DNA from: a virus | Reading direction: 5' to 3' (one strand) | Virus record (IMG/VR): IMGVR_UViG_3300045988_090463 | Span: 12,472-76,471 of that record | Length of the DNA stretch: 64,000 nt | Shown here: piece by piece, positions 3,422 through 55,769 of the stretch | Layout: the number at the start of each line of letters is the position of its first letter | Numbering within the stretch: the stretch's first letter is position 1 | Translations under genes and position numbers: made by a program | Notes under the pieces: model-generated | Told to the model about the DNA's origin: nothing | What the model saw: the letters and a program-made list of their open reading frames with translations, nothing else | The model's database searches: none

Positions 3422-4129
3422 CTACATTGTCATCTGGGCATTGCAGTCGCGAATCATCATCTTTGTGTTGGTACACGGTGTCCATCCTTTGATGTATTCG
3501 ACTGCTTCCTGGTATCTCAATTTCGGAATGTTATTTCTGGCATTTACATCGAAGTAAGTCTTTACATCCCTGTTGCATTCTGCAAATACCTTTTTTCCAA
3601 TTTCATCATAGGCATTGGATTTCTTTCCACCCAGAACCTCGATCACCACCTTGGAAACTAGATCACTGATGTACTTCTGCTGACCGTAATCAATGGTCAT
3701 GGTATTCTCAAGTTTCTCGATTCGCTCCTCATGATCTTGATTCCCCTGAGCCAACAACTGAATCTGCTCTGCTGTGGTCATTGGTTTCTGATAAGAGCCT
3801 GTCTTACGGATTGTTGGGAGGACTTCACTAGTTACCCAGTGTTTAAATCTTTTAGCTGATTCAAGTTTGCTTCCGAAGATTAAAGCGTATAAGCCAGATT
3901 CGTTGATGAGTGCTGTTTGAGTTTTTACCACATTCCCATTTTGGGAATCTGCTTCAAGAACCTTTAAAATTCTGTCTTCTTCTTCAACATGAACTGAAAC
4001 TGCTTTACTCGCATTGGAATATCCAAGTGCTAATGCCACATCTTTTCCAACGAACCAAGGTTCATTGTCAATAGTCACTGTTCGAATTTCTCCGAACTCT
4101 GCTGAATTGAAAATCTGTAATTTGTTCAT
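3422..4129 (-). CDS. phage antirepressor (Bro-N / KilAC-type)
   Basis: N-terminus MNKLQIFNSAEFGEIRTVTIDNEPWFVGKDVALALGY is the classic Bro-N signature. 235 aa. Lies downstream of the cro-like gene. Confidence 0.85.
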   Translation of the reverse strand: MNKLQIFNSAEFGEIRTVTIDNEPWFVGKDVALALGYSNASKAVSVHVEEEDRILKVLEADSQNGNVVKTQTALINESGLYALIFGSKLESAKRFKHWVTSEVLPTIRKTGSYQKPMTTAEQIQLLAQGNQDHEERIEKLENTMTIDYGQQKYISDLVSKVVIEVLGGKKSNAYDEIGKKVFAECNRDVKTYFDVNARNNIPKLRYQEAVEYIKGWTPCTNTKMMIRDCNAQMTM

Positions 4130-13923: not shown

Positions 13924-13968
13924 ATTCTATCACATATACAAGGTGAGATTCAGTAAGAAAAAGTTATA
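13924..13968 (-). promoter_or_regulatory. diverged copy (A) of the conserved late-region box plus TGaTAGAAT
   Basis: Minus sense TTTTTCTTACTGAAT-18 nt-TAGAAT. Shares the CTTACTGAAT core with the boxes at 24714 and 36710. Confidence 0.4.
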
Positions 13969-14289
13969 TTAATGTTTCTTTTGGATATCAGAAATGAATC
14001 TTTCGAATTGCTCTTTGCAAAATGTCTCATAATCCGTATTCCTCATAAGAAGTGCCCGATTCTTTAATTCTTTCAGTGCCTGCAAAAACATAGGTACATC
14101 TTTTTCCTTTACTTTGCAGATTACGACAACATAATTTTTCTCTCTGTGTTTGTAGTCCCCGCAGAATTTTACTCGGACTTTATTCTCTATAAAAATCCGA
14201 TCAGCAAGAAATCCCATTGTGTCTATGTAGGCAAATTGTTTGTTCCTGAAAAAATGACTTCTTCCAAGTTCAATATAATTAGTCTGCAT
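13969..14289 (-). CDS. hypothetical protein (106 aa)
   Basis: Start MQTNYIELG after AGAGGT. Last gene of the cassette. Confidence 0.45.
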   Translation of the reverse strand: MQTNYIELGRSHFFRNKQFAYIDTMGFLADRIFIENKVRVKFCGDYKHREKNYVVVICKVKEKDVPMFLQALKELKNRALLMRNTDYETFCKEQFERFISDIQKKH

Positions 14290-17421: not shown

Positions 17422-17479
17422 ATAGATAACCTCCATGTCGTTAATGTGTGACTGCCTTGTAGCCACAGATCCATGATTT

Positions 17480-17541
17480 ATAAAAACAACAGGCAGGTGC
17501 ATCATGGAATTGCACTTGTCCCCCGTCGGGTTAGCCTGTTG
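17480..17541 (-). promoter_or_regulatory. second leader hairpin plus U-tract
   Basis: CAACAGGC...GCCTGTTG followed by TTTTTAT, about 60 nt before the GIY-YIG start. Confidence 0.4.
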
Positions 17542-35128: not shown

Positions 35129-36616
35129 CTATTCTTCACCAGTGGAAGAAATTGTTGCTGATTGATTTTGAATTGATTTCTGACTAAAATCTTTAATCAA
35201 TTCTTGTGCTTTCTTCATTTCTGCGTCTGGGTTTGCCAGTTCGGGATAAACAGTTCCAAGATATGGTAAGCTCATTTCATATACCTTTTGCGGATCGCTG
35301 AATAATCCACAAGTAATCAATGCAATAAGCGGGTGAATTTTATTCTTGAACAGATAATCAAGTGCCTGTGCTTTAACAAGCATGTTATCTGTTGGGTTTC
35401 TGGTGATTTTGACATCAAAATCTCTGGTAGAAATCTTGACATCATTGGAGGTTTTGCGAATGATGTTGAGAATAATTCTGACAGAAGCTTTTTCGGCTTC
35501 TTTTGTGAATGCTTCAACAAGTTTGGCATCTCGCTCTGCAAAATCCCATCCATTACGTAAATATACAGCATTACCAGTATCACCACCGGTGTTGCTCTGG
35601 CGGTTTGGCATTGCTTCTACAATCAGCATATTATTGTAAATGTCGTCTTTAGCAACTTGGCTCTCCGACTGGTTTAATTCCGCAGTCATCAAGTCAACAT
35701 CTGACTGAACACCGTTTCCAGCATCTTTTACAGATATTGCTCCTAGCTTGACCATTTTCAAAAATTCATTCTCGTCAACTTCACAGTTTTTGAATTTCAT
35801 AAATGCTTGAACAAACTGTTCAACACCGTTTAATCTATCCGACTGATACTTGTTGATCGCATCAAATGCTGTAATTGCAATTTCGACATCAGATAGCCGG
35901 TCATGGTTGTTTGGATACTCGATAATTGGGATTCCGCCAAAGCCATTAATGCCGCTGACGGTTACTTGTCCGTTCTTTATCTTGAAATATTGATTTGAAG
36001 AATAGCAAAGATAATATTGCTGATTCTCTTCATCTTTCAATATTTGAACAGATAGCATTGCTTTTCCTGTGTTTCTGGAATAAACAATATAAACATCTCC
36101 CGGATACGGAATAAAAATTCTAAATGGTGGTAAATCACGGTCTTTTGTCCAATCGTCTTCTCGTAGAATTGCTTTGTATGCAGTTCCTACGGCACTCTGG
36201 TATATTCCAAGCTGAATATTTCGGGCATCCGCATTTGCTTCGTCCAGATAATCATTCAGCAGGTCGACCTGCTCATTTATCTTTTTATCTGCTTTTTTCT
36301 TTTTGCAGACATATTGAATAGGTTCTCCATATATTTGTCCTGCCTTAAACTTGACAACTTCCAGAGCGTGATTTTCGACAACTCTGTTATTTACTTCCGG
36401 TCTCACAAGCTTTTCCCGATATAAGATTGGTTGGTCGCCTTTGTAGTACCGATAAAGATAATTAATCATCATTCTGTTTCGATTATGTGTGCCAATCGTA
36501 TCAGATAGAACTTGAACAACATTTTCGGTAGTAATTTGAGCTACGCCAGTGTAGGCAGTTTTTCTGCCAAAATCGCCTTGGCATAGGTCAACAAAATTGC
36601 TTTTGTTTCTTCCCAC
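35129..36616 (-). CDS. portal protein
   Basis: 495 aa. GTG start 8 nt after AGGAGG. Lies between the terL region and the scaffold. Confidence 0.8.
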   Translation of the reverse strand: MGRNKSNFVDLCQGDFGRKTAYTGVAQITTENVVQVLSDTIGTHNRNRMMINYLYRYYKGDQPILYREKLVRPEVNNRVVENHALEVVKFKAGQIYGEPIQYVCKKKKADKKINEQVDLLNDYLDEANADARNIQLGIYQSAVGTAYKAILREDDWTKDRDLPPFRIFIPYPGDVYIVYSRNTGKAMLSVQILKDEENQQYYLCYSSNQYFKIKNGQVTVSGINGFGGIPIIEYPNNHDRLSDVEIAITAFDAINKYQSDRLNGVEQFVQAFMKFKNCEVDENEFLKMVKLGAISVKDAGNGVQSDVDLMTAELNQSESQVAKDDIYNNMLIVEAMPNRQSNTGGDTGNAVYLRNGWDFAERDAKLVEAFTKEAEKASVRIILNIIRKTSNDVKISTRDFDVKITRNPTDNMLVKAQALDYLFKNKIHPLIALITCGLFSDPQKVYEMSLPYLGTVYPELANPDAEMKKAQELIKDFSQKSIQNQSATISSTGEE

Positions 36617-37156: not shown

Positions 37157-38851
37157 CTATCTCCTTCCCCACATAAAATTCTTAGTTGCTGTAACTTCTG
37201 CAAATCGTTTTTGAGTCAGAGTTATCATAAGTTGTGTAACACCATCTGGTGCATCGTCGTGATCGTTGTCGCCAATATACACAAAAGTGGTCAACTGTTC
37301 CATTGCTTTTGAATATTCCTTGTTTTGGTATTTAGGTGCCAGAAATATGAATCTTCTTTTAACATCTCCAGAGTACTGATTGATTTTTTCTTTTTTAGCT
37401 TGCTTTGATGGAGCTTTTGTGCTGGTAGTGCTACAAGCATATCCATGTTCTTTTAGTCTTCCGCTGACATAATAAGCATACATATCGCCACCATTGTTAG
37501 CTTCGAAATTGATAGATTGGATCTCATTTCCCATAATTCTTCCGACAACCAGTGGAAGTGTGACTTCCTTCGGACCTGTATTAAAAATCCAGTCATAAAT
37601 GTATACATCTCCGTTTTCAAATTCCGCACCAACCGGCATGGACAAACTATCACCACCGCCCCACGCAACGTCACAAGCAGATACGTTCTTTACAAATCCG
37701 CCCTCTGGAAGAATTCCATTGTAATATCTTAGTTCATCTTCTGCGAACATGATTCCTTCACGCAAGAATGGTTTCTGTTGATATTTAGCCTCCCATTCGT
37801 TAGCATCAAGTCTGGCTTTCATATCTACATAATACTTCGTAGAAAAACCAACTCCATAATCATATTCAAAGTTTGATTCACCATCGTCATTCAAGGCAGG
37901 AATCTTACGGAACCGATACAATGGATTATCTCGATTGAGTTTTTCAATTTTGCCTAATGGGTCGTACAGATTCCATCTTGTTCCAACCATCAACTCTCTT
38001 GCCCCATCAATTTTACGGTCAACCATTTTGTTCAGATACTCTTGATAGGTATTCTCCAAACGAGTAGGGCTTAAAGAATGTTGCCTGTCTCGAACAAGGT
38101 CATCTACATACAAATATCCATCAGACGAAATATCAACAGCACCCGTCCATGTTCCCTCGATACCGCGACAAGTCATTGTGGCGAATCGGTCTGGCTTGTC
38201 CAAATTTATCTCAAAATCATCGGCACTTTGCTTTTGCAATTTTGATTTTGGAAATATCTCACTGTAAGTGTATTCTTGTGTGCTTATGAGATTCAGAAGC
38301 TCACCATAGAAACCCTTGGCCAGTTTTCCAGAGTGACCGCCCATTGCATTGTGGCTGTTTGGTCGTCTTCCCATTATCCACGACATAAAAAATATGCACA
38401 TAGTACTCTTACCAACACGACTTGGTAACGATAGACCGTAAAATTCAATTATCCTATCTTCCAAATCCTGTAAATCTTGAGCGACTACTTGGAGTGTTTT
38501 CTTTCTTGGGATATAAAACTTTTTGCTGTCCGGTCTATTCTTCTCCATGTATAACAAATAACTCTCGAACGCCCATGGGGCTTCCAACAATAAATACTGC
38601 CAGTAAATATCATCAAAATTACCGCTTCCAGTCAGTGCCGCGTTTCTTGCCGCAGTTGTATGAGCGTATCGACTGACTTTCATTGCCATATTCCGTGCAT
38701 CTGGATTATCCTTGAAAGGAAGGTCAATATTCATATTTAAAAGTAAATCAAGGCAGTCTTTCTGGTTTTGATAGACCGTCATATCGCCATTAATGATTTG
38801 ATTTAAAATTGCCCGATACCATTCAAGCGAGCCTTCTGTGAATTTTTGCAT
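37157..38851 (-). CDS. terL: terminase large subunit
   Basis: 564 aa. Walker A PSRVGKST. Acidic nuclease-domain motifs. Lies upstream of the portal gene. Confidence 0.85.
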   Translation of the reverse strand: MQKFTEGSLEWYRAILNQIINGDMTVYQNQKDCLDLLLNMNIDLPFKDNPDARNMAMKVSRYAHTTAARNAALTGSGNFDDIYWQYLLLEAPWAFESYLLYMEKNRPDSKKFYIPRKKTLQVVAQDLQDLEDRIIEFYGLSLPSRVGKSTMCIFFMSWIMGRRPNSHNAMGGHSGKLAKGFYGELLNLISTQEYTYSEIFPKSKLQKQSADDFEINLDKPDRFATMTCRGIEGTWTGAVDISSDGYLYVDDLVRDRQHSLSPTRLENTYQEYLNKMVDRKIDGARELMVGTRWNLYDPLGKIEKLNRDNPLYRFRKIPALNDDGESNFEYDYGVGFSTKYYVDMKARLDANEWEAKYQQKPFLREGIMFAEDELRYYNGILPEGGFVKNVSACDVAWGGGDSLSMPVGAEFENGDVYIYDWIFNTGPKEVTLPLVVGRIMGNEIQSINFEANNGGDMYAYYVSGRLKEHGYACSTTSTKAPSKQAKKEKINQYSGDVKRRFIFLAPKYQNKEYSKAMEQLTTFVYIGDNDHDDAPDGVTQLMITLTQKRFAEVTATKNFMWGRR

Positions 38852-39879: not shown

Positions 39880-40040
39880 TCTTTGTCCTCCTCATTTTGA
39901 CTTTCATCTTTATTTAGCTCATCAATAGCATTTCTGCCAATGTGATTCAATAATTTACCTAGCGGTTGAAATAATTTGTAAAGTAGAAACCATACTGCTA
40001 CTGCTCCACATATCACTAGAAATATAAATACTGGATTCAT
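39876..40040 (-). CDS. small TM protein coupled to the SPFH gene
   Basis: Product MNPVFIFLVICGAVAVWFLLYKLF. ATGA overlaps on both sides. Confidence 0.45.
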   Translation of the reverse strand: MNPVFIFLVICGAVAVWFLLYKLFQPLGKLLNHIGRNAIDELNKDESQNEEDKE

Positions 40041-40627
40041 AAATTCCCCTTTACTGGCCATTCAAAGCCAAAATCTGAACGTTTGATTTTGCATTGTGGG
40101 CTTCCGTCTTTCCAGAAAACTAATCCTTCTATCTCGTGTTCAGAAAGATATTTCTTGATTCCCTCGAATGTTCTTTCGACTTCAACGATTTCTTTGCCGT
40201 GTTTTATCAAGGCATCGTAATCATCATTATACGGATTGCCATGAAAATGTTTTCCGTAAGCTTCATATGTGCCATCCGGCAATTTAAGACCTTGATTTGT
40301 CCACATTGAAGTTACATAATATGCTTCTACAAACCACTTATCAGACGGATTATTCTCATCAACCTTTACCCATCCCGGCCAATGACCTGTAATGGAATCT
40401 GGCTCACAACAAGGGATAAATCCCTCTGGTGGTATTTTACCTTTCTTGCAGTCGTATCGTTTATAAAATTTTCCGTCAATTACTGCACAACAAGAGCCGT
40501 CATATTTAACTGTTGCAATTCCTTCTTCTTCAAGCACCCATTCCATACCTGGATGCACTTTTGGAAGAACCTTTACAACCTTATGGTCTTTAAATTCTCG
40601 CTCAAATAATGTTGGTATCTTTTTCAT
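40037..40627 (-). CDS. minimal ATP-dependent RNA/DNA ligase-like nucleotidyltransferase
   Basis: Motif I VKYDGS, motif IV EGLVFW, motif V CKIKRSDF. 196 aa with no OB domain. Confidence 0.6.
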   Translation of the reverse strand: MKKIPTLFEREFKDHKVVKVLPKVHPGMEWVLEEEGIATVKYDGSCCAVIDGKFYKRYDCKKGKIPPEGFIPCCEPDSITGHWPGWVKVDENNPSDKWFVEAYYVTSMWTNQGLKLPDGTYEAYGKHFHGNPYNDDYDALIKHGKEIVEVERTFEGIKKYLSEHEIEGLVFWKDGSPQCKIKRSDFGFEWPVKGNL

Positions 40628-43117: not shown

Positions 43118-43402
43118 TCACCATATTCCTCTATCATTATCTAATTCTCCAAGAATGTTAGGTTGACAATCTTTTTTGTCAAGTAATGTGACCTTTGCGT
43201 TATAAATCGTCTTAATCCTATCAGATTCGAGAAAAAATTCACTATTAAATTCAGTTTTGCAGTTTGTACAAATCCATTCTGCATCAGTTCTCAAACCTGC
43301 AGCATCTACGTCGCCACCAAAGATATCCGCTCCTGTATTGATTACTACTCCTCCGCAAAATGGACATTTACGTTTGTCTCGTAACGATAAATTATTTTCC
43401 AT
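43118..43402 (-). CDS. zinc-ribbon protein
   Basis: CPFCGG ... CTNC. Confidence 0.45.
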   Translation of the reverse strand: MENNLSLRDKRKCPFCGGVVINTGADIFGGDVDAAGLRTDAEWICTNCKTEFNSEFFLESDRIKTIYNAKVTLLDKKDCQPNILGELDNDRGIW

Positions 43403-43406
43403 AATT

Positions 43407-43574
43407 TTATTTTTCCTTGCCCTCCCTGTGCTTTATCTGACACTTGATCATCTTTGCTATATTCTCACGTTCCTGTTTTATTCCATGTCCCTGTCGAAAC
43501 AACTCGCATTCGAGAATATTTCCGCACTTGGAACATTCATCGTTGATTTCTTTGCCTGCTATTCGCATTTCCAT
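43407..43574 (-). CDS. small Cys-containing protein (55 aa)
   Basis: Own translation MEMRIAGKEINDECSKCGN.... Below the ORF-track cutoff. Confidence 0.3.
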   Translation of the reverse strand: MEMRIAGKEINDECSKCGNILECELFRQGHGIKQERENIAKMIKCQIKHREGKEK

Positions 43575-43834
43575 CCATCCTGTACCATTTTAGGCTTGTA
43601 TATTTTCTCGGTGTATCCCTCGCCGTTACATAAGTCGCAAGTAACTTCTATTTCTTTGTAATCATCGCAACACTCCCAGTATTGTGCACGATTTACTCTT
43701 TTGATAGTAGTTCCACTTCCGCCGCACTTCGGGCATCTATGAATTTTATTTCCTTGTATTAGACTTACAAGACCATTAAGAGTCGTTTCTCCACCGTATA
43801 CATTTCTCAGACGTATCGCTTCATGAATTTTCAT
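43559..43834 (-). CDS. DnaJ-type zinc-finger protein
   Basis: CPKCGGSG ... CDLCNGEG. Confidence 0.45.
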   Translation of the reverse strand: MKIHEAIRLRNVYGGETTLNGLVSLIQGNKIHRCPKCGGSGTTIKRVNRAQYWECCDDYKEIEVTCDLCNGEGYTEKIYKPKMVQDGWKCE

Positions 43835-43967
43835 TATTTACACCCTCCCAACATTCACAACTATCATCAAGACATCTAAAGTCTGCACAATATTCACTGT
43901 CACCATTGAAACAAACCCATGTGAAGTCATCATGTCTTCTGCAATTCTTACAACATTTTTCTTCCAT
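43821..43967 (-). CDS. small Cys-rich protein (48 aa)
   Basis: Own translation MEEKCCKNCRRHDDFTWVCFNGDSEYCADFRC.... Confidence 0.3.
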   Translation of the reverse strand: MEEKCCKNCRRHDDFTWVCFNGDSEYCADFRCLDDSCECWEGVNNENS

Positions 43968-43989
43968 AAGCCACATCCTTAAACAAAAA

Positions 43990-44042
43990 TTCCAGTACAC
44001 GGACTTGAACCGTAACTAGCCACCCAACGTGGAGTACTGGAA
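43990..44042 (-). ncRNA. tRNA-like element lacking an anticodon arm
   Basis: 8-bp acceptor TTCCAGTA/TACTGGAA, a CCAC-GTTGG-GTGG arm and a T-arm TACGG-TTCAAGT-CCGTG. Only 53 nt. Confidence 0.3.
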
Positions 44043-44079
44043 ACCATTCATAGAAAGGTAAGATAAAAATGAAATCCTT

Positions 44080-44100
44080 CCAATGATTGCAGTTCATTGG
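44080..44100 (-). ncRNA. free anticodon-stem-loop-like hairpin (7-bp stem, loop ACUGCAA)
   Basis: CCAATGA-ACTGCAA-TCATTGG, 2 nt after the tRNA-Ser 3' end. Confidence 0.3.
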
Positions 44101-44102
44101 AA

Positions 44103-44185
44103 CGGTGCATCCGTGATTCGAACACGGACAACATTTCTGTTGGAAGACTTAGCAAGTCTCTCTGTTACCATTACAGCAATGCACC
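44103..44185 (-). tRNA. tRNA-Ser (GCU), type II
   Basis: Hand-folded: acceptor GGTGCAT/ATGCACC, D-arm CTGT-AATGGTA-ACAG, anticodon loop TTGCTAA, long variable arm CAACA-GAAA-TGTTG, T-arm CCGTG-TTCGAAT-CACGG. Confidence 0.8.
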
Positions 44186-44263
44186 ACTTAACTAACCAAA
44201 TCTGATTTTATTGTATCGTCAAAAAATCAAAAAAAACGGTGGGAACCTTATTCGCAAGAGCTA

Positions 44264-44288
44264 CGCCCACAAGTGGAATCGAACCACT
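44264..44288 (-). ncRNA. orphan tRNA 3' fragment (T-arm plus 3' acceptor strand) fused to a terminator hairpin
   Basis: AGTGG-TTCGATT-CCACT then TGTGGGCG. No matching 5' acceptor strand within 300 nt. GTGGG...CCCAC followed by T8. Confidence 0.3.
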
Positions 44289-44521
44289 ACGCTGCACCTA
44301 ACTCGCTCCGTATGTTTTATATAAGAAAACCAGAAAGAAAACCACTTCTCTATCCTGCTATACACTGTTTGGAAGAACCATTTCAAGCACGTTCACTTAT
44401 TGACTACTAGAGGAAATTCACTTTGCCGATAAGTAATACATACTCGGAACTCGGCCAACATTCTGCCATGTATTACCCTGTGCTTTTCCTACCACCAAAC
44501 TTTCAGTCTCCAAACAGTGAA

Positions 44522-44605
44522 TGGGAGAAGATGGAGTCGAACCATCCGAACCACAATGGCAACAGATTTACAGTCTGCCCCGCTACCTCTACGGAATATT
44601 CTCCC
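44522..44605 (-). tRNA. tRNA-Tyr (GUA), type II
   Basis: Acceptor GGGAGAA/TTCTCCC, anticodon arm GCAGA-CTGTAAA-TCTGT, long variable arm, T-arm GATGG-TTCGACT-CCATC. The D-arm is slightly irregular. Confidence 0.75.
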
Positions 44606-44919
44606 AAAACCCGGATTCCCGGGTTAGCAATATGTTTATCGTGTTATGCTTTCCACTAGGCTGTTTTATGCTGTGTCAGTCACACAGAGTTGTTTCGGAT
44701 ATTATTATGCCTTTTTGGGCTATTTTATGCTTCTTGAAAACTCCCTTGTCATCAATGCGCGCTTGTGATGGCTTATTGAAACTAAGAAACATTCATCGGA
44801 CGGGAAATCAGATCAAGCACAAGCCTATGCCGTTACATATCTTTGCTCATTCTGATTCACATACGCTCATCCGAAAGTTTTTTCTGCCCATAAAACGGAT
44901 GGGCAGCATATGGAAGAAA

Positions 44920-44992
44920 TGGAAATTCTGAGATTCGAACTCAGGACTTCCCGGTTATGAGCCGGGCGTTCTAACCACTGAACTAAATTTCC
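44920..44992 (-). tRNA. tRNA with a CAU anticodon (elongator Met or Ile2)
   Basis: Acceptor GGAAATT/AATTTCC with a G1-C72 pair, D-arm GTTC-AGTGGTTA-GAAC, anticodon arm CCCGG-CTCATAA-CCGGG, T-arm CTGAG-TTCGAAT-CTCAG. Confidence 0.85.
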
Positions 44993-45214
44993 TGAGTAGA
45001 AAATATTACCAGCACCTCAAAGCCATATTTTCTACTGTTGCGATTCTTTGCCACCAGTCGCAACAAAGGCTCCCTTTTTTGGTTTTGCTGTCACCTATAC
45101 GGGAATCCCATCCGGGACGTTTGAAGCCCCTTTAGGCAGCTCCGTTGAGCTAGATGGGTATCGGAGGGTCTATGTGAAATAAACCATTGCCAGGTACATG
45201 CGCAACCCGACAAA

Positions 45215-45286
45215 TGGGGCTAGTGGGATTCGAACCCGCGAATACAGCAGTCAAAGTGCTGTGCCTTACCACTTGGCGATAGCCCT
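45215..45286 (-). tRNA. tRNA-Gln (UUG)
   Basis: TCGCCAAGTGGTAAGGCA D-region, anticodon arm CAGCA-CTTTGAC-TGCTG, T-loop TTCGAAT. A1:C72 and one C:A mismatch in the T-stem. Confidence 0.7.
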
Positions 45287-45565
45287 AAAATCTTTCTCCC
45301 ACTCCGCACCATTACAAAAGCAGGAGAAAGAATTGTGTGTGATATAATTACTATTTCTGCAATGCAAACAATATATATGTGGAGAAAATCGAATTTAATA
45401 TAATCGACTACAGAAATTTTTTTACACTAAGTTGGATGTAAAGAATATTTGCTTGCGTACCGCTCCACAATCGGGCAAGCGTATCCTTCCGGTTTGATTA
45501 TAGGTTTAACCCGTTCTATGATAAAAAACGGAATAATCCTCGCAGGAAATGCTAAAAGCATATTT

Positions 45566-45745
45566 TTACCTCGCTGTGCAGATTAATATGGTATTCAGAA
45601 TGAGTCCTAATTCCAACACTGTAAAGAAGAAAGTAGAAAACATCGGTATTTTCTTCTCACTAATTTGCGTCATGAGGAATGCAGTTAACGTTGTGAATAC
45701 TATTATGTTAATCGCTACTGCAATGATCGTTAATGGTAATCTCAT
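45566..45745 (-). CDS. small two-TM membrane protein (59 aa)
   Basis: Own translation MRLPLTIIAVAINIIVFTTLTAFLM.... SD GGAGAGG. ATGA coupling. Preferred over the plus-strand ORF 45549-45764. Confidence 0.45.
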   Translation of the reverse strand: MRLPLTIIAVAINIIVFTTLTAFLMTQISEKKIPMFSTFFFTVLELGLILNTILICTAR

Positions 45746-47063: not shown

Positions 47064-48230
47064 TCACACCGCCTTTCTCGGACGGCCTTTCGCCATTTTA
47101 GGAGTATTCAATGCTTCTTCTACAGTCATGCCTTTTTGATTATGCCTATAATTAAATGTTTCTACAGAAATTCCGTATTGCTTACAAATATCAGATTTCG
47201 GTACCATTTCCCCTCCGAACAAAATCATCGCCGTCTTTTTCTTGTTTTTTCGTTTCTTCCATTCGGAAGGAGGTCTTTTATTTTTCTGTTGTTCAACATT
47301 AGTAATCCATCGGCAATTGTTGGGTTCATAATTTCCGTTTACGTCTATTCTGTCAATCGTGCATTCTCCAAACGGAGCATTTTCATCATATCCATGTTTA
47401 TAGGCCCATTCTTTGAATATCGAATAGTCATGCCATTCATCGCATAATTTAATTCCACGTCCGCCATAATTGTAATAGTTAGAAGCAGTAATGGACTCGC
47501 ATCTTCGCTTTATATCCTGCCACACATGATACAGGCGATCATTACTTCCACCATGGGTTCGGCTAGAATCACTATGACGACATCCACAACTTTTTACCAT
47601 CCCTGAAACTAATTCAATCGGTCTTACGTTCTTAATATTCCCGCAATCACACCGGCATTTAAACCTTTTAATTTCACCAGGATCATTTATTCCTATCACC
47701 GTTAGGAAACCAAAATGTTTCCCGATATAAGTTCCATCGTATTTAATATTCGAAAAATGTTTATGGCACTTCTGATCTTTCCACTTCCCTGCATGCATCA
47801 TGCTAAAAGAAACATCTTTAAATGCTCCGCATTCTCTACAAACCATACGAATCTTAATAGGATTCTGTTCTATTATTTTTGAAGCAGTGTAATCTCCATA
47901 CTGTTTCCCTATTTCGGATTCAAGTAGGTCTTTTTTAATTTTTCGAGATTTTTCAAGCTCTGCATTTCGTCTTTTCTTTCGACATTTAGGACATGCCTTT
48001 ATAAGTTCACTCCATTTATTTCTGCCTTTTATCATTCCTCTCTGGATTTCATTTCCGCATGTAACGCATTTAAGTTTAACTACTCTGGCTTTAGTATATG
48101 GATTGTATGAAATATCAATAATTTTGTAGTCACCATTTACTGTGCCAATACGCTTTTGATAATATTCAATCATTTGAGAAATATTTTCTTTGCTAATTCC
48201 GTATGAAACTAACTCTTCTACGCTGTTCAT
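47064..48230 (-). CDS. multi-zinc-ribbon protein with a C-terminal HNH-like / AP2-like DNA-binding module
   Basis: Several CxxC pairs. C-terminal RLYHVWQDIKRRC...YGGRGIKLCDEW...TIDRIDVNGNYEPNNCRWIT..EQQKN. Confidence 0.45.
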   Translation of the reverse strand: MNSVEELVSYGISKENISQMIEYYQKRIGTVNGDYKIIDISYNPYTKARVVKLKCVTCGNEIQRGMIKGRNKWSELIKACPKCRKKRRNAELEKSRKIKKDLLESEIGKQYGDYTASKIIEQNPIKIRMVCRECGAFKDVSFSMMHAGKWKDQKCHKHFSNIKYDGTYIGKHFGFLTVIGINDPGEIKRFKCRCDCGNIKNVRPIELVSGMVKSCGCRHSDSSRTHGGSNDRLYHVWQDIKRRCESITASNYYNYGGRGIKLCDEWHDYSIFKEWAYKHGYDENAPFGECTIDRIDVNGNYEPNNCRWITNVEQQKNKRPPSEWKKRKNKKKTAMILFGGEMVPKSDICKQYGISVETFNYRHNQKGMTVEEALNTPKMAKGRPRKAV

Positions 48231-54035: not shown

Positions 54036-55769
54036 TCAAAAAGCAAAGAAATATGTGTATTTTACGGGCTCTTTGTGTCCCGGAAAGCTGCGTAAAGCTC
54101 TGTAAAATGTAGTGCTTCGTTCCGTGAATATGGGGTTAAATAAGTTCACCGAACAACGCATACTTTTTCCGCTAACAAATGACATTTCTGTCGTAATTCC
54201 ATCTTTCAAATAAAATACCAGCTTTGCTTCTTTTTCTCCTATTGGATTAACAACTATTTTTTTCAAAAAACTGTCTACAACTGTCTTGGTTATGTCGTCC
54301 GGGCCGATTCCATCAAGCTGTTTTATGGAATGTGCAATTGCTCTGATTTGGTTTTCTATCGGAACAATATCATCCTGTATGGTTGACAGTTTTTCAATTT
54401 GCTTCTTGTATTCTTCAATTTGAGCTTCTAGTTTTTGACTCTTTTCAATGAATACAGCATCACTAATAGCTCCGTCCAGATTGTATTCCAGTAGCTTATC
54501 ACTTTTTCGTTCAGCGACATTTATTTGCTTTTCGAGTCTTTTAATTTCAGTTGATGCGTCTGCCTGGTTCATGGATGAATGATATATTTTAATGAACTTT
54601 TCGGCAATTTGTTCAATATCACCAGAAGATTCACAAATTAATTTCGCAATAACTTCTCGAAGTTCTCCGTCATCGATGTAAAAAGAATCACAGCTTGCAG
54701 CGCCTTCTTTTATTTTCTTACTGCAAACCCATTTAACATCTTCTTTTCCTCGAAGTGTTCTTTGTTTAAGCCAATATGATGCGCCGTCATTTCCACAAAT
54801 AAGCATCCCTGTGAACACATTTTCACTCTTTTTGATAGATGTTCTACGGGTTTTTACAATCTCGCCACGTGCATCAATATATTCGTTTGCTTTTTTCCAC
54901 ACTTCTTCGTCAACGATTTGCGGAACATGGCTTCCATCATCTTTAAACATCACCCATTCTGATTCTGGAAGAAACTCCTGCTTTTTGGTGAACATATCAA
55001 CAATCTTAACTTTACCACCGGCATAATATCCTTTATACTTTGGGTTTCTTATAATGTGGCGAATAACATTTCTGTCGATTTTACCGCCTTTGTAATTGCG
55101 ATAGCCCATGTTGTATAATTTTTTTTCTAATTGAGGCGTTGTCCATTCGCCGGATGCATAGTCTTCAAAAATCATTCTAACCATTTGAGCTTCAGATTCA
55201 TTTATTGTGAGTTTTCCGTCTTTTTTGTCGTACCCGTAAATCCTAGAGTTTCCAAGGACAACCCCATTTTTAATAGATTGCTTGTGTCCAAATTTAACAC
55301 GGTTAGAAAGCTTTCGGACTTCATCCTGTGCGACGCCAGCCATGATTGTCAATCGAAGTTCACTGTCTTCATCAATGGTGTTGATGTTGTCATTCTGAAA
55401 CCACACGCATACGCCCCAAGAAAGCATTTGCCTGGTATACTGGATACTGTCAAGTGTATTTCTGGCAAAACGCGTGATCTCTTTTGTGATAAGCATATCA
55501 AATTTCCCGTTCTTTGCATCTTCAAGCATTTCTTTGAACTGCTCACGATGTTTGGTTTGTATGCCAGATATGCCATTATCAATATATCCTTTAGCAAACT
55601 TCCAGTTTCTATTGCTTTTAATGAATTCTTTATAATACTGGGTTTGGTGTTCAATGGATACCTGCTGATCTTCGGAATCTGTACTTACACGAGCATAAAA
55701 AGCAACTCGTAAATTCAAATCATAAATAGAACGGGTTCTTAGTCTTTCTCTTGTATGGTATATGTTCAT
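54036..55769 (-). CDS. large serine recombinase (integrase)
   Basis: 577 aa. Catalytic block RVAFYARVSTD...FDMLITKEITRFARN. Recombinase, zinc-ribbon and coiled-coil C-terminal region. Confidence 0.9.
   Translation of the reverse strand: MNIYHTRERLRTRSIYDLNLRVAFYARVSTDSEDQQVSIEHQTQYYKEFIKSNRNWKFAKGYIDNGISGIQTKHREQFKEMLEDAKNGKFDMLITKEITRFARNTLDSIQYTRQMLSWGVCVWFQNDNINTIDEDSELRLTIMAGVAQDEVRKLSNRVKFGHKQSIKNGVVLGNSRIYGYDKKDGKLTINESEAQMVRMIFEDYASGEWTTPQLEKKLYNMGYRNYKGGKIDRNVIRHIIRNPKYKGYYAGGKVKIVDMFTKKQEFLPESEWVMFKDDGSHVPQIVDEEVWKKANEYIDARGEIVKTRRTSIKKSENVFTGMLICGNDGASYWLKQRTLRGKEDVKWVCSKKIKEGAASCDSFYIDDGELREVIAKLICESSGDIEQIAEKFIKIYHSSMNQADASTEIKRLEKQINVAERKSDKLLEYNLDGAISDAVFIEKSQKLEAQIEEYKKQIEKLSTIQDDIVPIENQIRAIAHSIKQLDGIGPDDITKTVVDSFLKKIVVNPIGEKEAKLVFYLKDGITTEMSFVSGKSMRCSVNLFNPIFTERSTTFYRALRSFPGHKEPVKYTYFFAF

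What the first reader, a model, noticed from the sequence alone, without database searches (positions are those of the whole stretch)
43990..45286. tRNA island with four intact tRNAs, tRNA-like fragments and unusually long structured spacers
Hand folding gives tRNA-Gln(UUG), tRNA-Met/Ile2(CAU), tRNA-Tyr(GUA) and tRNA-Ser(GCU), all on the minus strand. They are separated by spacers of 220, 315 and 335 nt rather than a few nucleotides. Each tRNA is directly preceded by a strong hairpin. For Gln it is TCTTTCTCC...GGAGAAAGA plus UUUU. For Met it is an 11-bp stem GTAGAAAATAT/ATATTTTCTAC. For Tyr it is AACCCGG-GAAT-CCGGGTT plus UUU. Three odd elements are also present. The first is an orphan T-arm plus 3' acceptor strand with no 5' partner (44264-44288), fused to a terminator. 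The second is a free 7-bp anticodon-stem-loop-like hairpin with loop ACUGCAA (44080-44100). The third is a 53-nt acceptor/D/T mini-tRNA with no anticodon arm (43990-44042). A 9-bp stem GTAATACAT/ATGTATTAC lies in the 44.3-44.5 kb spacer. These could be processing signals, decoys for host anticodon nucleases or tRNA-modifying enzymes, or novel small RNAs.
Basis: partly seen in the sequence, partly recalled or inferred. Interest (0 to 1): 0.65.

Follow-up and report, generated by a model that had tools for sequence, protein, structure and literature searches.

The report
Phage tRNA island carrying structured RNAs
The long "spacers" between four phage tRNA genes are not junk: most of them are conserved, folded non-coding RNAs, including two tRNA look-alikes with no anticodon arm, in the same genomic slots where related phages carry the enigmatic ROOL RNA.

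Summary
Four intact tRNAs lie on the minus strand: Gln-UUG, Met-CAU, Tyr-GUA and Ser-GCU. They are separated by spacers of 221, 313 and 334 nt.

The window is an uncultivated temperate gut phage whose nearest genomic relatives are Lachnospiraceae prophages. More than 200 related loci show that the spacers are conserved RNA structures with compensatory base changes:
- S1 (44993-45213)
- S2 (44607-44919)
- S3a (44361-44520)
- a tail hairpin (44078-102)
- two anticodon-arm-less tRNA-like elements, A (45107-45158) and B (43991-44041)

Predicted pairs form in 96-99% of cells, against 28-50% in slid controls. G·U pairs outnumber A·C 345 to 19, which points to RNA on the tRNA strand. S2 evolves more slowly than four-fold sites of the terminase gene.

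Only 44187-44359 looks like decay. It holds a Met tRNA truncated after 18 nt and an orphan T-arm.

In relatives the same slots hold ROOL RNA, skipping-rope RNA or a DUF2828/vWA "RNA-binding" gene.

The best reading is one tRNA-ncRNA operon in which tRNAs and tRNA-like elements serve as RNase P/Z cut sites. The hairpins abutting each tRNA would then cap the released RNAs. This processing step is inferred, not shown.

None of the spacer RNAs matches Rfam 15, and their function is unknown. The S3a core motif occurs in at least 113 viral contigs.

The parts
45339..45346 (-). TATATCAC box, a -10-like element 8 nt upstream of the leader hairpin. Putative start region of the island transcript.
   Evidence: Conserved in nearly all of 64 distinct leader variants, although the hairpin that follows differs. 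The 8-mer on its own is not enriched in the window. Promoter function is inferred.
45291..45331 (-). Leader hairpin (TCTTTCTCC...GGAGAAAGA) ending 4 nt before tRNA-Gln.
   Evidence: In relatives a hairpin of different stem sequence always ends 3-6 nt before tRNA-Gln. A U-run follows it only in the window's clade.
45214..45287 (-). tRNA-Gln (UUG), with an A1·C72 mismatch at the top of the acceptor stem.
   Evidence: ARAGORN. Rfam 58.7 bits with the alignment shown. First tRNA of the island in all relatives.
44993..45213 (-). S1 spacer RNA. It holds hairpin i (45187-45213) with a U-rich tail, tRNA-like element A, a variable hairpin, the near-invariant hairpin iv (45035-45067, TTTGTTGCGA-CTGGTGGCAAAGAA-TCGCAACAG) and hairpin v (44996-45035).
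   Evidence: 40 distinct variants aligned (A1). RNAalifold. 99.0% of cells paired against 37-50% when slid, and 10 pairs with double changes against 0-2. Hairpin v has 12 different stem sequences, all ending 2-6 nt before tRNA-Met.
45107..45158 (-). tRNA-like element A, with no anticodon arm: 7-bp acceptor-like stem CCCATCT/GGATGGG, 5-bp hairpin AGCTC-AACG-GAGCT, a linker, and a T-arm GGGGC-TTCAAAC-GTCCC.
   Evidence: Descriptor scan. Recovered by MFE folding. The acceptor stem covaries GC/CG/UA/AU, and 4 of 5 hairpin pairs covary. Cleanly absent (about 63 nt) in 5 variants. No Rfam tRNA hit at E<=10.
44920..44992 (-). tRNA-Met (CAU). Whether it is elongator Met or Ile2 was not resolved.
   Evidence: ARAGORN. 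Rfam 75.6 bits. Always the second tRNA in relatives.
44607..44919 (-). S2 spacer RNA (313 nt). Its 5' UUCUUC pairs with GGGAG (44732-44747 region). It also holds hairpin P1 (44884-44906), a long branched hairpin, the invariant motif TAGTGGAAAGCATAACACGATAAAC (44634-44658) and the terminal hairpin AACCCGG/CCGGGTT (44608-44625), which ends 1 nt before tRNA-Tyr.
   Evidence: Alignment A2 has 55 pairs, 21 of them with compensatory changes. 96.4% of cells paired against 33-47% when slid, and 0 of 500 shuffles reach the observed values. MFE z-score -2.96. Identity to the L046 clade is 61-73%, against 45% at TerL four-fold sites. The motif occurs in at least 115 viral contigs. The 3' domain is also found upstream of tRNA-Asn in distant prophages.
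44521..44606 (-). tRNA-Tyr (GUA), long variable arm.
   Evidence: ARAGORN. Rfam 36.3 bits. Present in only part of the relatives.
44361..44520 (-). S3a spacer RNA (160 nt). A terminal stem CACTGTTTGGA/TCCAAACAGTG joins its two ends. The core pairing is GACTG...TAGTC.
   Evidence: A4: 95.8% of cells paired against 39-48% when slid, and 10 pairs with double changes. The core pair covaries A-U/G-C/C-G in distant members. The core motif occurs in at least 113 viral contigs from many samples, 67 of 81 contexts with a tRNA 24-59 nt downstream. A Lacrimispora prophage copy lies between tRNA-Met and tRNA-Gln.
44342..44359 (-). Truncated tRNA-Met2: the first 18 nt only.
   Evidence: Identical to the 5' end of the intact second Met-CAU tRNA of relatives, then the similarity breaks off.
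44187..44341 (-). Poorly conserved stretch, with an orphan T-arm (44273-44287) and a hairpin followed by T8 (44229-44270, terminator-like).
   Evidence: Found in only about 10 loci, all at 95% identity or more. The T-arm matches tRNA T-arms over only 11-16 nt. There is no covariation evidence. Read as a decay or recombination scar.
44102..44186 (-). tRNA-Ser (GCU), long variable arm.
   Evidence: ARAGORN. Rfam 52.9 bits.
44078..44102 (-). Tail hairpin, 9 bp with the 7-nt loop ACUGCAA, starting at the 3' end of the last tRNA.
   Evidence: It follows the last tRNA in relatives, whichever tRNA that is. 5 of 8 stem pairs show compensatory changes. Loop consensus is A-N-U-G-C-M-A.
43991..44041 (-). 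tRNA-like element B, with no anticodon arm: 8-bp acceptor-like stem TCCAGTAC/GTACTGGA, hairpin CCAC-GTTGG-GTGG, a linker, and a 4-bp T-arm ACGG-TTCAAGT-CCGT.
   Evidence: Descriptor scan. Recovered by MFE folding. Covariation in all three helices. Tail hairpin and element B together: 99.3% of cells paired against 28-43% when slid, and 14 of 24 pairs with double changes.
43981..43990 (-). U-rich run (AUUUUUGUUU) directly after element B, followed by an RBS and the ATG (43965-43967) of a small CxxC protein gene.
   Evidence: A T-run follows element B in all relatives. Terminator or attenuator function is inferred.

Best explanation
The region is the tRNA island of an uncultivated temperate gut phage of the Lachnospiraceae-phage type. 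It lies at the head of the packaging and structural gene block.

It is best read as one co-oriented non-coding operon. Four functional tRNA genes are interleaved with conserved structured non-coding RNA modules (S1, S2, S3a), and the operon is closed by a hairpin plus a tRNA-like element and a U-run.

Shown:
- The modules and the two anticodon-arm-less tRNA-like elements are under selection for RNA secondary structure on the tRNA-sense strand.
- They evolve more slowly than neutral sites.
- They are not coding.
- They are absent from Rfam 15.
- Related phages carry ROOL RNA, skipping-rope RNA or a DUF2828/vWA 'RNA-binding protein' gene in the same inter-tRNA slots.
- One stretch (44187-44359) is a decay scar.

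Inferred:
- A long precursor is cut by host RNase P at the 5' side, and by RNase Z at the 3' side, of every tRNA and of the tRNA-like elements A and B. These have a 7-8 bp acceptor stem stacked on a 4-5 bp T-stem with a T-loop, which is the minimal substrate of both enzymes.
- The hairpin that ends 1-6 nt before each tRNA then becomes the 3'-terminal protective hairpin of the released spacer RNA.
- The hairpin just after each tRNA protects the new 5' end.
- The released RNAs act in trans during the lytic cycle, like ROOL, GOLLD and T4 RNA C/D. Their biochemical role is unknown.
For: tRNAs.

The family-wide island has constant Gln-S1-Met-S2 and a constant tail, with a variable middle.

Covariation:
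- S1: 99% of cells paired against 37-50% when slid.
- S2: 96.4% against 33-47%, with 21 compensated pairs.
- S3a: 95.8% against 39-48%.
- Tail and element B: 99.3% against 28-43%, with 14 of 24 pairs compensated.

Strand: 345 G·U cells against 19 A·C cells in the predicted pairs.

Purifying selection: S2 is 61-73% identical where TerL four-fold sites are 45% identical.

No conserved ORF, and indels are mostly not multiples of 3.

A hairpin always abuts the next tRNA, with 12 different stem sequences before tRNA-Met.

The descriptor scan finds the tRNA-like fold only in islands: 114 hits on the sense strand against 2 on the other in 1.79 Mb, and 0 in shuffles. At least four sequence families of the fold occur in other phage tRNA arrays.

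ROOL fills tRNA spacers in L037 and in a Roseburia prophage. Skipping-rope RNA is packed between an S3a-like RNA and tRNA-Met in L241.

The literature places ROOL and GOLLD near phage tRNA islands (PMC5737381, PMC12286853). [quoted passage not shown]
Against:
- The structures for S1, S2 and S3a were derived from the same alignments on which pairs were counted, and many sequences come from one virome, so relatedness inflates the counts.
- Element A is cleanly deleted in 5 variants, so it is dispensable.
- A hairpin plus T8 at 44229-44270, and U-rich runs after hairpin i, could break the island into several transcripts.
- No function can be assigned to any module.
Confidence: 0.7

Rival explanations
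1. The spacers are cis-acting transcription control elements of the late operon. In this reading the hairpins with U-runs are terminators or attenuators. The conserved structures act like HK022 put RNAs or other processive antiterminators, so that RNA polymerase reads through the island into the packaging genes.
For: The island sits directly upstream of the small-gene/terminase/portal block, and all genes are co-oriented. U-rich runs follow hairpin i, the 44229-44270 hairpin and element B. The TATATCAC box suggests a dedicated promoter.
Against: - The same modules (S3a, the S2 3' domain) occur between tRNAs in other phages and at other positions in arrays, not at a fixed place before late genes.
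- More than 700 nt of three unrelated structured modules is far more than known antiterminator RNAs.
- The hairpins before Gln, Met and Tyr are mostly not followed by U-runs.
Confidence: 0.12
2. The modules are Y-RNA-like scaffolds or partners of an RNA repair and surveillance system. They would work with a Ro60-like (DUF2828+vWA) RNA-binding protein and the phage RNA ligase, by analogy with Rsr-YrlA-RtcB. This concerns the function of the released RNAs and is compatible with the best explanation.
For: - 42-47 of 212 related loci carry a 485-aa DUF2828/DUF7788-vWA gene (phrog_850 'RNA-binding protein') inside the island.
- The window encodes an RLIG1-like RNA ligase at 40037-40627.
- S3a is closed by pairing of its two ends, as Y RNAs are.
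Against: - The window has no DUF2828 gene (tblastn).
- S3a and the DUF2828 gene did not co-occur in the 63 complete islands.
- No Rfam Y RNA hit.
- Similarity of DUF2828 to Ro60 is recalled, not shown: the PDB sequence search gave no Ro60 hit and the AlphaFold model was too poor to use (pLDDT 49.5).
- Topology differs from YrlA, where the acceptor stem is loop-closed.
Confidence: 0.15
3. The tRNA-like elements and the anticodon-stem-like hairpin are decoys or sponges for host tRNA-targeting defence nucleases or tRNA-binding enzymes.
For: The phage carries its own tRNAs and an RNA ligase, as T4 does against PrrC (own knowledge). Elements A and B keep a T-loop, and GG in the D-like loop, so they could present a tRNA elbow.
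Against: - Elements A and B lack the anticodon arm, which is the target of PrrC-, RloC- and PARIS-type nucleases.
- The tail hairpin loop lacks U33, and its loop is inverted in some relatives.
- Element A is dispensable.
- No defence or anti-defence gene is linked.
Confidence: 0.08
4. The spacers are only decayed tRNA pseudogenes and neutral filler that look conserved because the phages are close relatives.
For: Real decay products exist: Met2 truncated after 18 nt, and an orphan T-arm in a stretch shared only with near-identical loci. In some relatives tRNA-Tyr is no longer called (518-530-nt spacers). The D-like stem of element A (TAGCTC...GAGCT) looks tRNA-derived.
Against: - Compensatory changes keep 96-99% of predicted pairs.
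- S2 is more conserved than four-fold sites.
- The modules recur in prophages with only 52-68% TerL identity and in unrelated viral contigs.
Confidence: 0.05
5. The spacers encode small proteins.
For: ORFs of 26-96 codons can be drawn in the spacers, for example an antisense ORF at 44521-44931.
Against: The longest ORF changes strand, frame and length between variants. Gap runs are mostly not multiples of three: S2 147 against 30, S1 234 against 64. The antisense ORF runs through two tRNA genes.
Confidence: 0.02

Closest known systems
ROOL RNA (Rfam RF03087) and GOLLD RNA
   Same: Both are structured ncRNAs of phages and prophages of Firmicutes, typically next to tRNA islands and possibly co-transcribed with tRNAs, with unknown function (PMC5737381, PMC12286853). 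In relatives of this very phage, ROOL sits exactly between two island tRNAs.
   Different: S1, S2 and S3a are 160-313 nt, not 580-800 nt. They have no sequence or CM similarity to ROOL or GOLLD (no hit at E<=10). ROOL and S2 co-occur in L037, so they are separate genes. Whether the new RNAs multimerise is unknown.
skipping-rope RNA (RF02924)
   Same: A small, highly conserved phage-associated ncRNA of unknown function. In L241 it lies head to tail between an S3a-like RNA and tRNA-Met.
   Different: There is no skipping-rope match in the island of the window, and the fold is unrelated.
Phage T4 stable RNAs C and D (rnaC, rnaD)
   Same: They are phage RNAs of still unknown function (PMC9697503). 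By my own knowledge, not checked here, they are encoded in the T4 tRNA gene cluster and matured from the tRNA precursor.
   Different: Different host phylum and no sequence similarity tested. T4 has two such RNAs and short spacers. Here every inter-tRNA gap is a structured module.
YrlA / bacterial Y RNAs
   Same: They carry a tRNA-like module with acceptor stem, D arm and T arm. The Mycobacterium smegmatis YrlA, which has a 7-bp acceptor stem, is cut by RNase P and receives CCA. They are found in phages too (PMC4201824).
   Different: In YrlA the tRNA-like domain is joined to a Ro-binding stem through the anticodon-stem position and lies next to rsr. Elements A and B are free-standing 50-nt units closed by the acceptor stem, with no arm at the anticodon position, and the window has no Ro-like gene.
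tRNA-like processing signals (plant mitochondrial t-elements, MALAT1 mascRNA)
   Same: These are acceptor plus T-arm mimics that recruit RNase P and RNase Z to define the ends of neighbouring RNAs (own knowledge). This is the mechanism proposed here for elements A and B.
   Different: They are eukaryotic or organellar. Cleavage at A and B has not been tested. Element B is also followed by a U-run, like an intrinsic terminator.
Canonical phage tRNA clusters (T4, T5, mycobacteriophages)
   Same: Co-oriented tRNA genes that supplement host decoding. In relatives the array also holds an inserted protein gene.
   Different: In such clusters spacers are usually a few to tens of nt (own knowledge). 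Here spacers of 150-700 nt are the conserved rule across the family, and they are structured.

Membership tests
tRNA (RF00005) | Cloverleaf with acceptor, D, anticodon and T arms, scored at or above the Rfam gathering score or called by ARAGORN. | tested here: met
   Four genes are called by ARAGORN. Rfam gives 75.6, 58.7, 52.9 and 36.3 bits against a gathering score of 29.
tRNA (RF00005), applied to elements A and B, the orphan T-arm and the Met2 fragment | Anticodon arm present, and a CM or ARAGORN call. | tested here: not met
   No tRNA-clan hit at E<=10 outside the four genes, and ARAGORN is silent. Elements A and B have 16-25 nt between the acceptor and T stems, enough for only one short hairpin.
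ROOL RNA (RF03087) | CM score of at least 99.1 bits. | tested here: not met
   No hit in the window at gathering score or at E<=10 in 43600-45700. Met in relatives: L037 at 376.8 bits and L084 at 384.6 bits.
GOLLD, skipping-rope, Y RNA, T-box, tmRNA, RNase P RNA, 6S (Rfam 15) | A CM match for any of these in the spacers. | tested here: not met
   The E<=10 scan of 43600-45700 lists only tRNA-clan hits and chance hits. ARAGORN finds no tmRNA.
Structured ncRNA (general) | Secondary structure conserved through compensatory substitutions, above controls. | tested here: met
   Paired cells are 95.8-99.3% against 28-50% when slid. For percentage paired, cells changed on both sides and covariation score, 0 of 500 shuffles reach the observed value. 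For S1, S3a and the tail, the count of further pair types did not exceed its shuffles, and 4 of 500 shuffles reached S3a's count of compensated pairs.
RNase P / RNase Z substrate (tRNA-like processing signal) | A 7-bp acceptor stem coaxial with a T-stem and T-loop (about 12 bp in all). | tested here: met
   Element A is 7+5 bp with loop TTCAAAC. Element B is 8+4 bp with loop TTCAAGT.
RNase P / RNase Z substrate (tRNA-like processing signal) | Actual cleavage at the predicted sites. | not testable with these tools
YrlA / Y RNA | Encoded next to a Ro60 (TROVE) gene and bound by it. | tested here: not met
   The window has no DUF2828 or Ro-like gene (tblastn). Relatives do have a DUF2828-vWA gene in the island, but its Ro60 relationship was not demonstrated.
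Intrinsic terminator | A G+C-rich hairpin directly followed by a U-run. | tested here: inconclusive
   The consensus scan flags only the tail hairpin on the minus strand. Element B with AUUUUUGUUU, and the 44229-44270 hairpin with T8, fit loosely. The hairpins before Met and Tyr have no U-run.

The most novel reading that the evidence does not exclude
S1, S2 and S3a, and the anticodon-arm-less tRNA-like elements, are new classes of phage non-coding RNA that belong functionally with ROOL, GOLLD and skipping-rope: RNAs made from tRNA arrays and matured by the tRNA-processing machinery.

The S3a core (GNCUG...GUAGN'CARUAAGUGAACRUGC...AUGGUUCU) would be a widespread, uncatalogued class tied to tRNA-Met(CAU) genes in many unrelated phages.

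The mini-tRNAs would be a bacterial and phage counterpart of eukaryotic t-elements and mascRNA, or elbow mimics that engage tRNA-binding factors.
Probability: 0.5. Interest if true: 0.78.

Novelty: new variant of a known kind. Interest (0 to 1): 0.68.

Why it matters
Phage tRNA islands are usually annotated as tRNAs plus empty spacers. Here almost every inter-tRNA gap is a conserved folded RNA. The same slots hold ROOL and skipping-rope in relatives, and both of those RNAs still have unknown functions.

This suggests tRNA arrays are general launch pads for phage ncRNAs, matured by RNase P and RNase Z.

The finding supplies three new RNA families, one of them in at least 113 viral contigs. It also supplies at least four sequence families of anticodon-less tRNA mimics to test.

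Relatives are integrated in Roseburia and Lacrimispora genome assemblies, among them the sequenced type strain Lacrimispora xylanisolvens DSM 3808 (that locus was not checked for the RNA modules). These offer a possible route to experiments on why phages make such RNAs, including ROOL.

Tried and rejected
- **Rfam:** searched at E<=10 over the island. Only tRNA-clan and chance hits came back.
- **Small-ORF reading:** rejected.
- **DNA palindrome or protein-site reading:** rejected on the G·U to A·C asymmetry, 345 to 19.
- **TATATCAC as a repeated phage promoter:** it occurs 4 times in the window against 2.5 expected, so it is not informative.
- **DUF2828 protein = Ro60?** The PDB sequence search gave no Ro60 hit. 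NCBIfam gave nothing. The AlphaFold2 model from a shallow alignment had pLDDT 49.5, so no fold search was run. The literature search on 'TROVE' was swamped by the common word, and 'DUF2828' gave nothing relevant.
- **Joint MAFFT alignment of elements A and B:** it puts the 3' strands one column out of register. I therefore used a hand-written descriptor scan instead of a covariance model.
- **MAFFT/RNAalifold on very divergent S3a-like sequences:** the alignment collapses, and only the core helix is recovered.
- **ROOL sequences:** checked for the S3a motif, which is absent.
- **Neighbouring ORFs:** Pfam on these gave no tRNA-processing enzymes.
Full report
**Observation.** ARAGORN finds four tRNA genes in the whole 64-kb window, all on the minus strand: Ser-GCU 44102-44186, Tyr-GUA 44521-44606, Met-CAU 44920-44992 and Gln-UUG 45214-45287. 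Rfam confirms them at 52.9, 36.3, 75.6 and 58.7 bits. The spacers are 221, 313 and 334 nt. Nothing in the spacers matches any of 4227 Rfam families, even at E<=10.

**Context.** Every long ORF of the window is on the minus strand. The window encodes:
- a large terminase (37157-38851)
- a portal protein (35129-36616)
- a large serine recombinase (54036-55769)
- an HNH endonuclease (47064-48230)

It is therefore a temperate tailed phage. Its only GenBank relatives are human-faecal phage scaffolds. The terminase has 535 relatives in IMG/VR. In the species-representative genomes, the nearest relatives (52-68% identity) are mostly prophages of Lachnospiraceae: Roseburia, Lacrimispora, Hungatella and Clostridium spp.. 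Most of these (11 of 15) also have tRNA genes upstream of the terminase. The island lies between a block of small ORFs and the small-ORF/terminase block.

**The island is a family trait with a fixed frame.** In about 65 related loci the order is always leader, tRNA-Gln, a spacer of about 150-245 nt, tRNA-Met, then a spacer of about 290-360 nt or more. A variable set of tRNAs follows (Tyr, a second Met, Thr, Ile-UAU, Arg-CCU, Ser-GCU, odd 69-76-nt tRNA-like genes, and a 72-nt tRNA with anticodon UGA, UCA or CCA). A constant tail closes the island. Long spacers are the rule, not an accident of this genome. Coverage of the window by homologous loci is highest over Gln-S1-Met-S2 (131-183 loci) and over the tail (about 66 loci at the tail hairpin, 120-146 over element B and the gene start). 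It is lowest (about 10 loci, all at 95% identity or more) over 44201-44341.

**Spacer 1 (S1, 44993-45213).** Forty distinct variants align (A1). They share five parts:
- **Hairpin i**, right after tRNA-Gln, followed by a U-rich run.
- **A 52-nt tRNA-like element (A, 45107-45158).**
- **A variable hairpin.**
- **Hairpin iv**, a near-invariant hairpin at 45035-45067 with a conserved 14-nt loop.
- **Hairpin v**, a long hairpin whose stem sequence differs between clades (12 versions) but which always ends 2-6 nt before tRNA-Met.

RNAalifold predicts element A and hairpin iv. On my named structure, 99.0% of cells pair against 37-50% when the partner is slid. Ten pairs have changes on both sides, against 0-2 in the slid controls.

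**Spacer 2 (S2, 44607-44919).** Eighteen diverse variants give a consensus of 55 pairs, 21 of them with compensatory changes. The structure comprises:
- a long-range helix between the 5' UUCUUC and a GGGAG about 170 nt downstream
- hairpin P1
- a long branched hairpin
- a 3' domain with the invariant motif TAGTGGAAAGCATAACACGATAAAC
- the terminal AACCCGG/CCGGGTT hairpin

In relatives it abuts whichever tRNA follows (Tyr, Met2 or Arg), so it belongs to S2 and not to the tRNA. 96.4% of cells pair against 33-47% when slid, and 0 of 500 shuffles reach the observed values. The MFE z-score is -2.96. Between the window and the L046 clade, four-fold degenerate sites of the terminase gene are 45% identical. 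S2 is 61% identical at unpaired columns and 73% at paired columns, so it is under purifying selection. The S2 3' motif is in at least 115 viral contigs. A profile also finds the 3' domain in three distant Lachnospiraceae prophages, directly upstream of tRNA-Asn in two of them, with a covarying terminal hairpin.

**Spacer 3 is composite.**
- **44361-44520 (S3a)** is a third conserved module. Its two ends pair (CACTGTTTGGA/TCCAAACAGTG, which covaries with TGTCTGGA/TCCAGATA and TTAATTAGA/TCTAATTAA). 95.8% of cells pair against 39-48% when slid.
- **The S3a core motif** GTAGNCANTAAGTGAANNTGC is in at least 113 IMG/VR contigs from many samples, with contig sizes from 5 to 210 kb. In 81 distinct contexts, 67 have a tRNA 24-59 nt downstream (55 of them tRNA-Met CAU) and 22 have a tRNA about 110 nt upstream. 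The core helix GNCUG/UAGN'C covaries A-U, G-C and C-G. A copy sits exactly between tRNA-Met and tRNA-Gln in a Lacrimispora prophage. No Rfam family covers it.
- **44342-44359** is the first 18 nt of the second Met-CAU tRNA, which is intact in relatives. Similarity then breaks off.
- **44187-44341** holds the orphan T-arm and a hairpin plus T8. It is shared only with near-identical loci and has no covariation support. This is where the "decayed fragment" reading is right.

**Tail.** After the last tRNA, whichever it is, comes a hairpin with a 7-nt loop A-N-U-G-C-M-A (44078-44102). A pyrimidine-rich linker follows, then tRNA-like element B (43991-44041), a U-run, and the RBS and ATG of a small CxxC protein gene. 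99.3% of cells pair against 28-43% when slid, and 14 of 24 pairs show compensatory changes, in all four helices.

**The tRNA-like elements.** A and B share one architecture:
- an acceptor-like stem of 7-8 bp
- a short hairpin of 4-5 bp whose loop ends in GG
- a linker of 6-7 nt
- a T-arm of 4-5 bp with loop TTCAAnY
- the 3' acceptor strand, followed mostly by A

There is no room for an anticodon arm. A descriptor for this fold hits the window twice (A and B) and hits 0 of 20 shuffles. In 1.79 Mb of related loci it hits 114 times on the tRNA-sense strand and twice on the other, always in islands. In 0.9 Mb of unrelated S3a-bearing loci it finds further sequence families of the same fold, always near same-strand tRNAs. 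MFE folding recovers both elements independently. Element A is cleanly missing in five variants, so it is modular and dispensable.

**Strand and coding.** Across all predicted pairs there are 345 G·U cells and 19 A·C cells. The structures are therefore RNA on the tRNA-sense strand, not DNA palindromes. No ORF is conserved in the spacers, and indels are mostly not multiples of three.

**What relatives put in the same slots.**
- ROOL RNA fills the gap between Met2 and the last tRNA in L037 (376.8 bits). It also fills the gap between tRNA-Glu and tRNA-Ser in a Roseburia prophage (384.6 bits). It is found in 7 of 212 loci.
- In L241 an S3a-like RNA, skipping-rope RNA and tRNA-Met are packed head to tail.
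- 42-47 loci carry a 485-aa DUF2828/DUF7788-vWA gene (phrog_850 "RNA-binding protein") inside the island. The window does not.
- The window does encode an RLIG1-like RNA ligase 3.4 kb downstream.

The literature states that ROOL and GOLLD are often near tRNA islands in phages and prophages, may be co-transcribed with tRNAs, and have unknown function (PMC5737381, PMC12286853). T4 RNA C and D are likewise of unknown function (PMC9697503).

**Mechanism.** Structure conservation, strand, non-coding nature and slot equivalence with known ncRNAs are shown. The rest is inferred, as follows. Transcription starts near the conserved TATATCAC box. RNase P and RNase Z cut at every tRNA and at elements A and B. 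[quoted passage not shown] The hairpin ending 1-6 nt before each tRNA becomes the protective 3' hairpin of the released RNA. The hairpin just after each tRNA protects the 5' end. What S1, S2 and S3a then do is unknown. The RNA ligase and the DUF2828 gene in relatives hint at tRNA or RNA repair and surveillance, but that is only a lead.

**Rivals.**
- **Cis-acting control of read-through into the late genes** is possible for the U-run elements. It does not explain modules that recur between tRNAs in unrelated arrays.
- **Decoys for anticodon nucleases** are unlikely, because the mimics lack anticodon arms.
- **Pure decay** is contradicted everywhere except 44187-44359.
- **Small ORFs** are rejected.

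**Limits.**
- No expression data could be obtained.
- Many sequences come from one virome and are related.
- The S1, S2 and S3a structures were derived from the same alignments that were then counted.
- The Ro60 relationship of DUF2828 could not be tested.
- The identity of tRNA-Met(CAU) as Met or Ile2 was not resolved.

**Verdict.** The "novel small RNAs / processing signals" reading is supported at the level of comparative structure, and the "decoy" reading is not. The island is a new variant of a known kind: a phage tRNA array that doubles as an ncRNA array, holding three RNA families and a class of anticodon-less tRNA mimics that are not in Rfam 15.

Noticed in passing
window 40037-40627 (-): A 196-aa ORF matches phrog_14301 'RNA ligase' (E 2.5e-55) and PDB 9c6l 'RNA ligase1' (E 3.7e-10). 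Its Pfam RLIG1 score is just below the cut-off. This is a phage RNA ligase 3.4 kb downstream of the tRNA island, and possibly a tRNA repair function.
   Followed up: partly
window 17471-17541 (-): An int-alpA RNA (RF02996) match at 52.2 bits, above the gathering score. The same family occurs in the Roseburia prophage locus L084 at 13962-14028.
   Followed up: no
relatives, last tRNA of the island (e.g. L046 6089-6160, L049 6084-6155): One 72-nt tRNA scaffold occurs with anticodon UGA (26 loci), UCA (9 loci; opal-suppressor type, with C33) or CCA (1 locus). This looks like anticodon switching and could point to TGA recoding in some relatives. The window has tRNA-Ser GCU instead, and its ORFs read normally in code 11.
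   Followed up: partly
relatives L008, L011, L017, L044, L048 and about 40 more (e.g. L011 3840-5297): A 485-aa gene with DUF2828 plus DUF7788/vWA domains (phrog_850 'RNA-binding protein') is inserted between island tRNAs. It is absent from the window. The layout of a helical N-terminal half plus a vWA C-terminal half recalls Ro60, but this was not demonstrated.
   Followed up: partly
relatives L016, L017, L019, L008, L031, L052: These carry odd tRNA-like genes: a 69-70-nt 'tRNA-Cys(ACA)' with an undersized anticodon loop, and a 76-nt tRNA with an oversized loop that ARAGORN calls '???(tt)'.
   Followed up: no
L044 about 3738-3770: Five nt after the second tRNA-Met, a normal-looking tRNA 5' half begins (GGCAAGGTAGCTCAATTGGTAGAGCAG), but no tRNA is called. 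It lies at the edge of the DUF2828 gene insertion and may be an interrupted tRNA.
   Followed up: no
L069 and L049 tail hairpin (equivalent to window 44078-44102): The 7-nt loop ATTGCCA is replaced by its reverse complement TGGCAAT between unchanged stem arms. This is a loop flip by recombination between the inverted repeats.
   Followed up: no
window 45215-45286 (-): tRNA-Gln of the window's clade has an A1·C72 mismatch at the top of the acceptor stem. Most relatives have U1-A72.
   Followed up: no
window 43559-43967 (-) and 43118-43402 (-): A run of small CxxC zinc-ribbon-like ORFs lies directly downstream of the island. One matches phrog_6730, and Pfam gives weak DnaJ_CXXCXGXG and Anti-TRAP hits below the cut-off.
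   Followed up: no
window 45566-45745 (-): A 59-aa strongly hydrophobic ORF ends about 220 nt upstream of the island's TATATCAC box. It has no family match.
   Followed up: no
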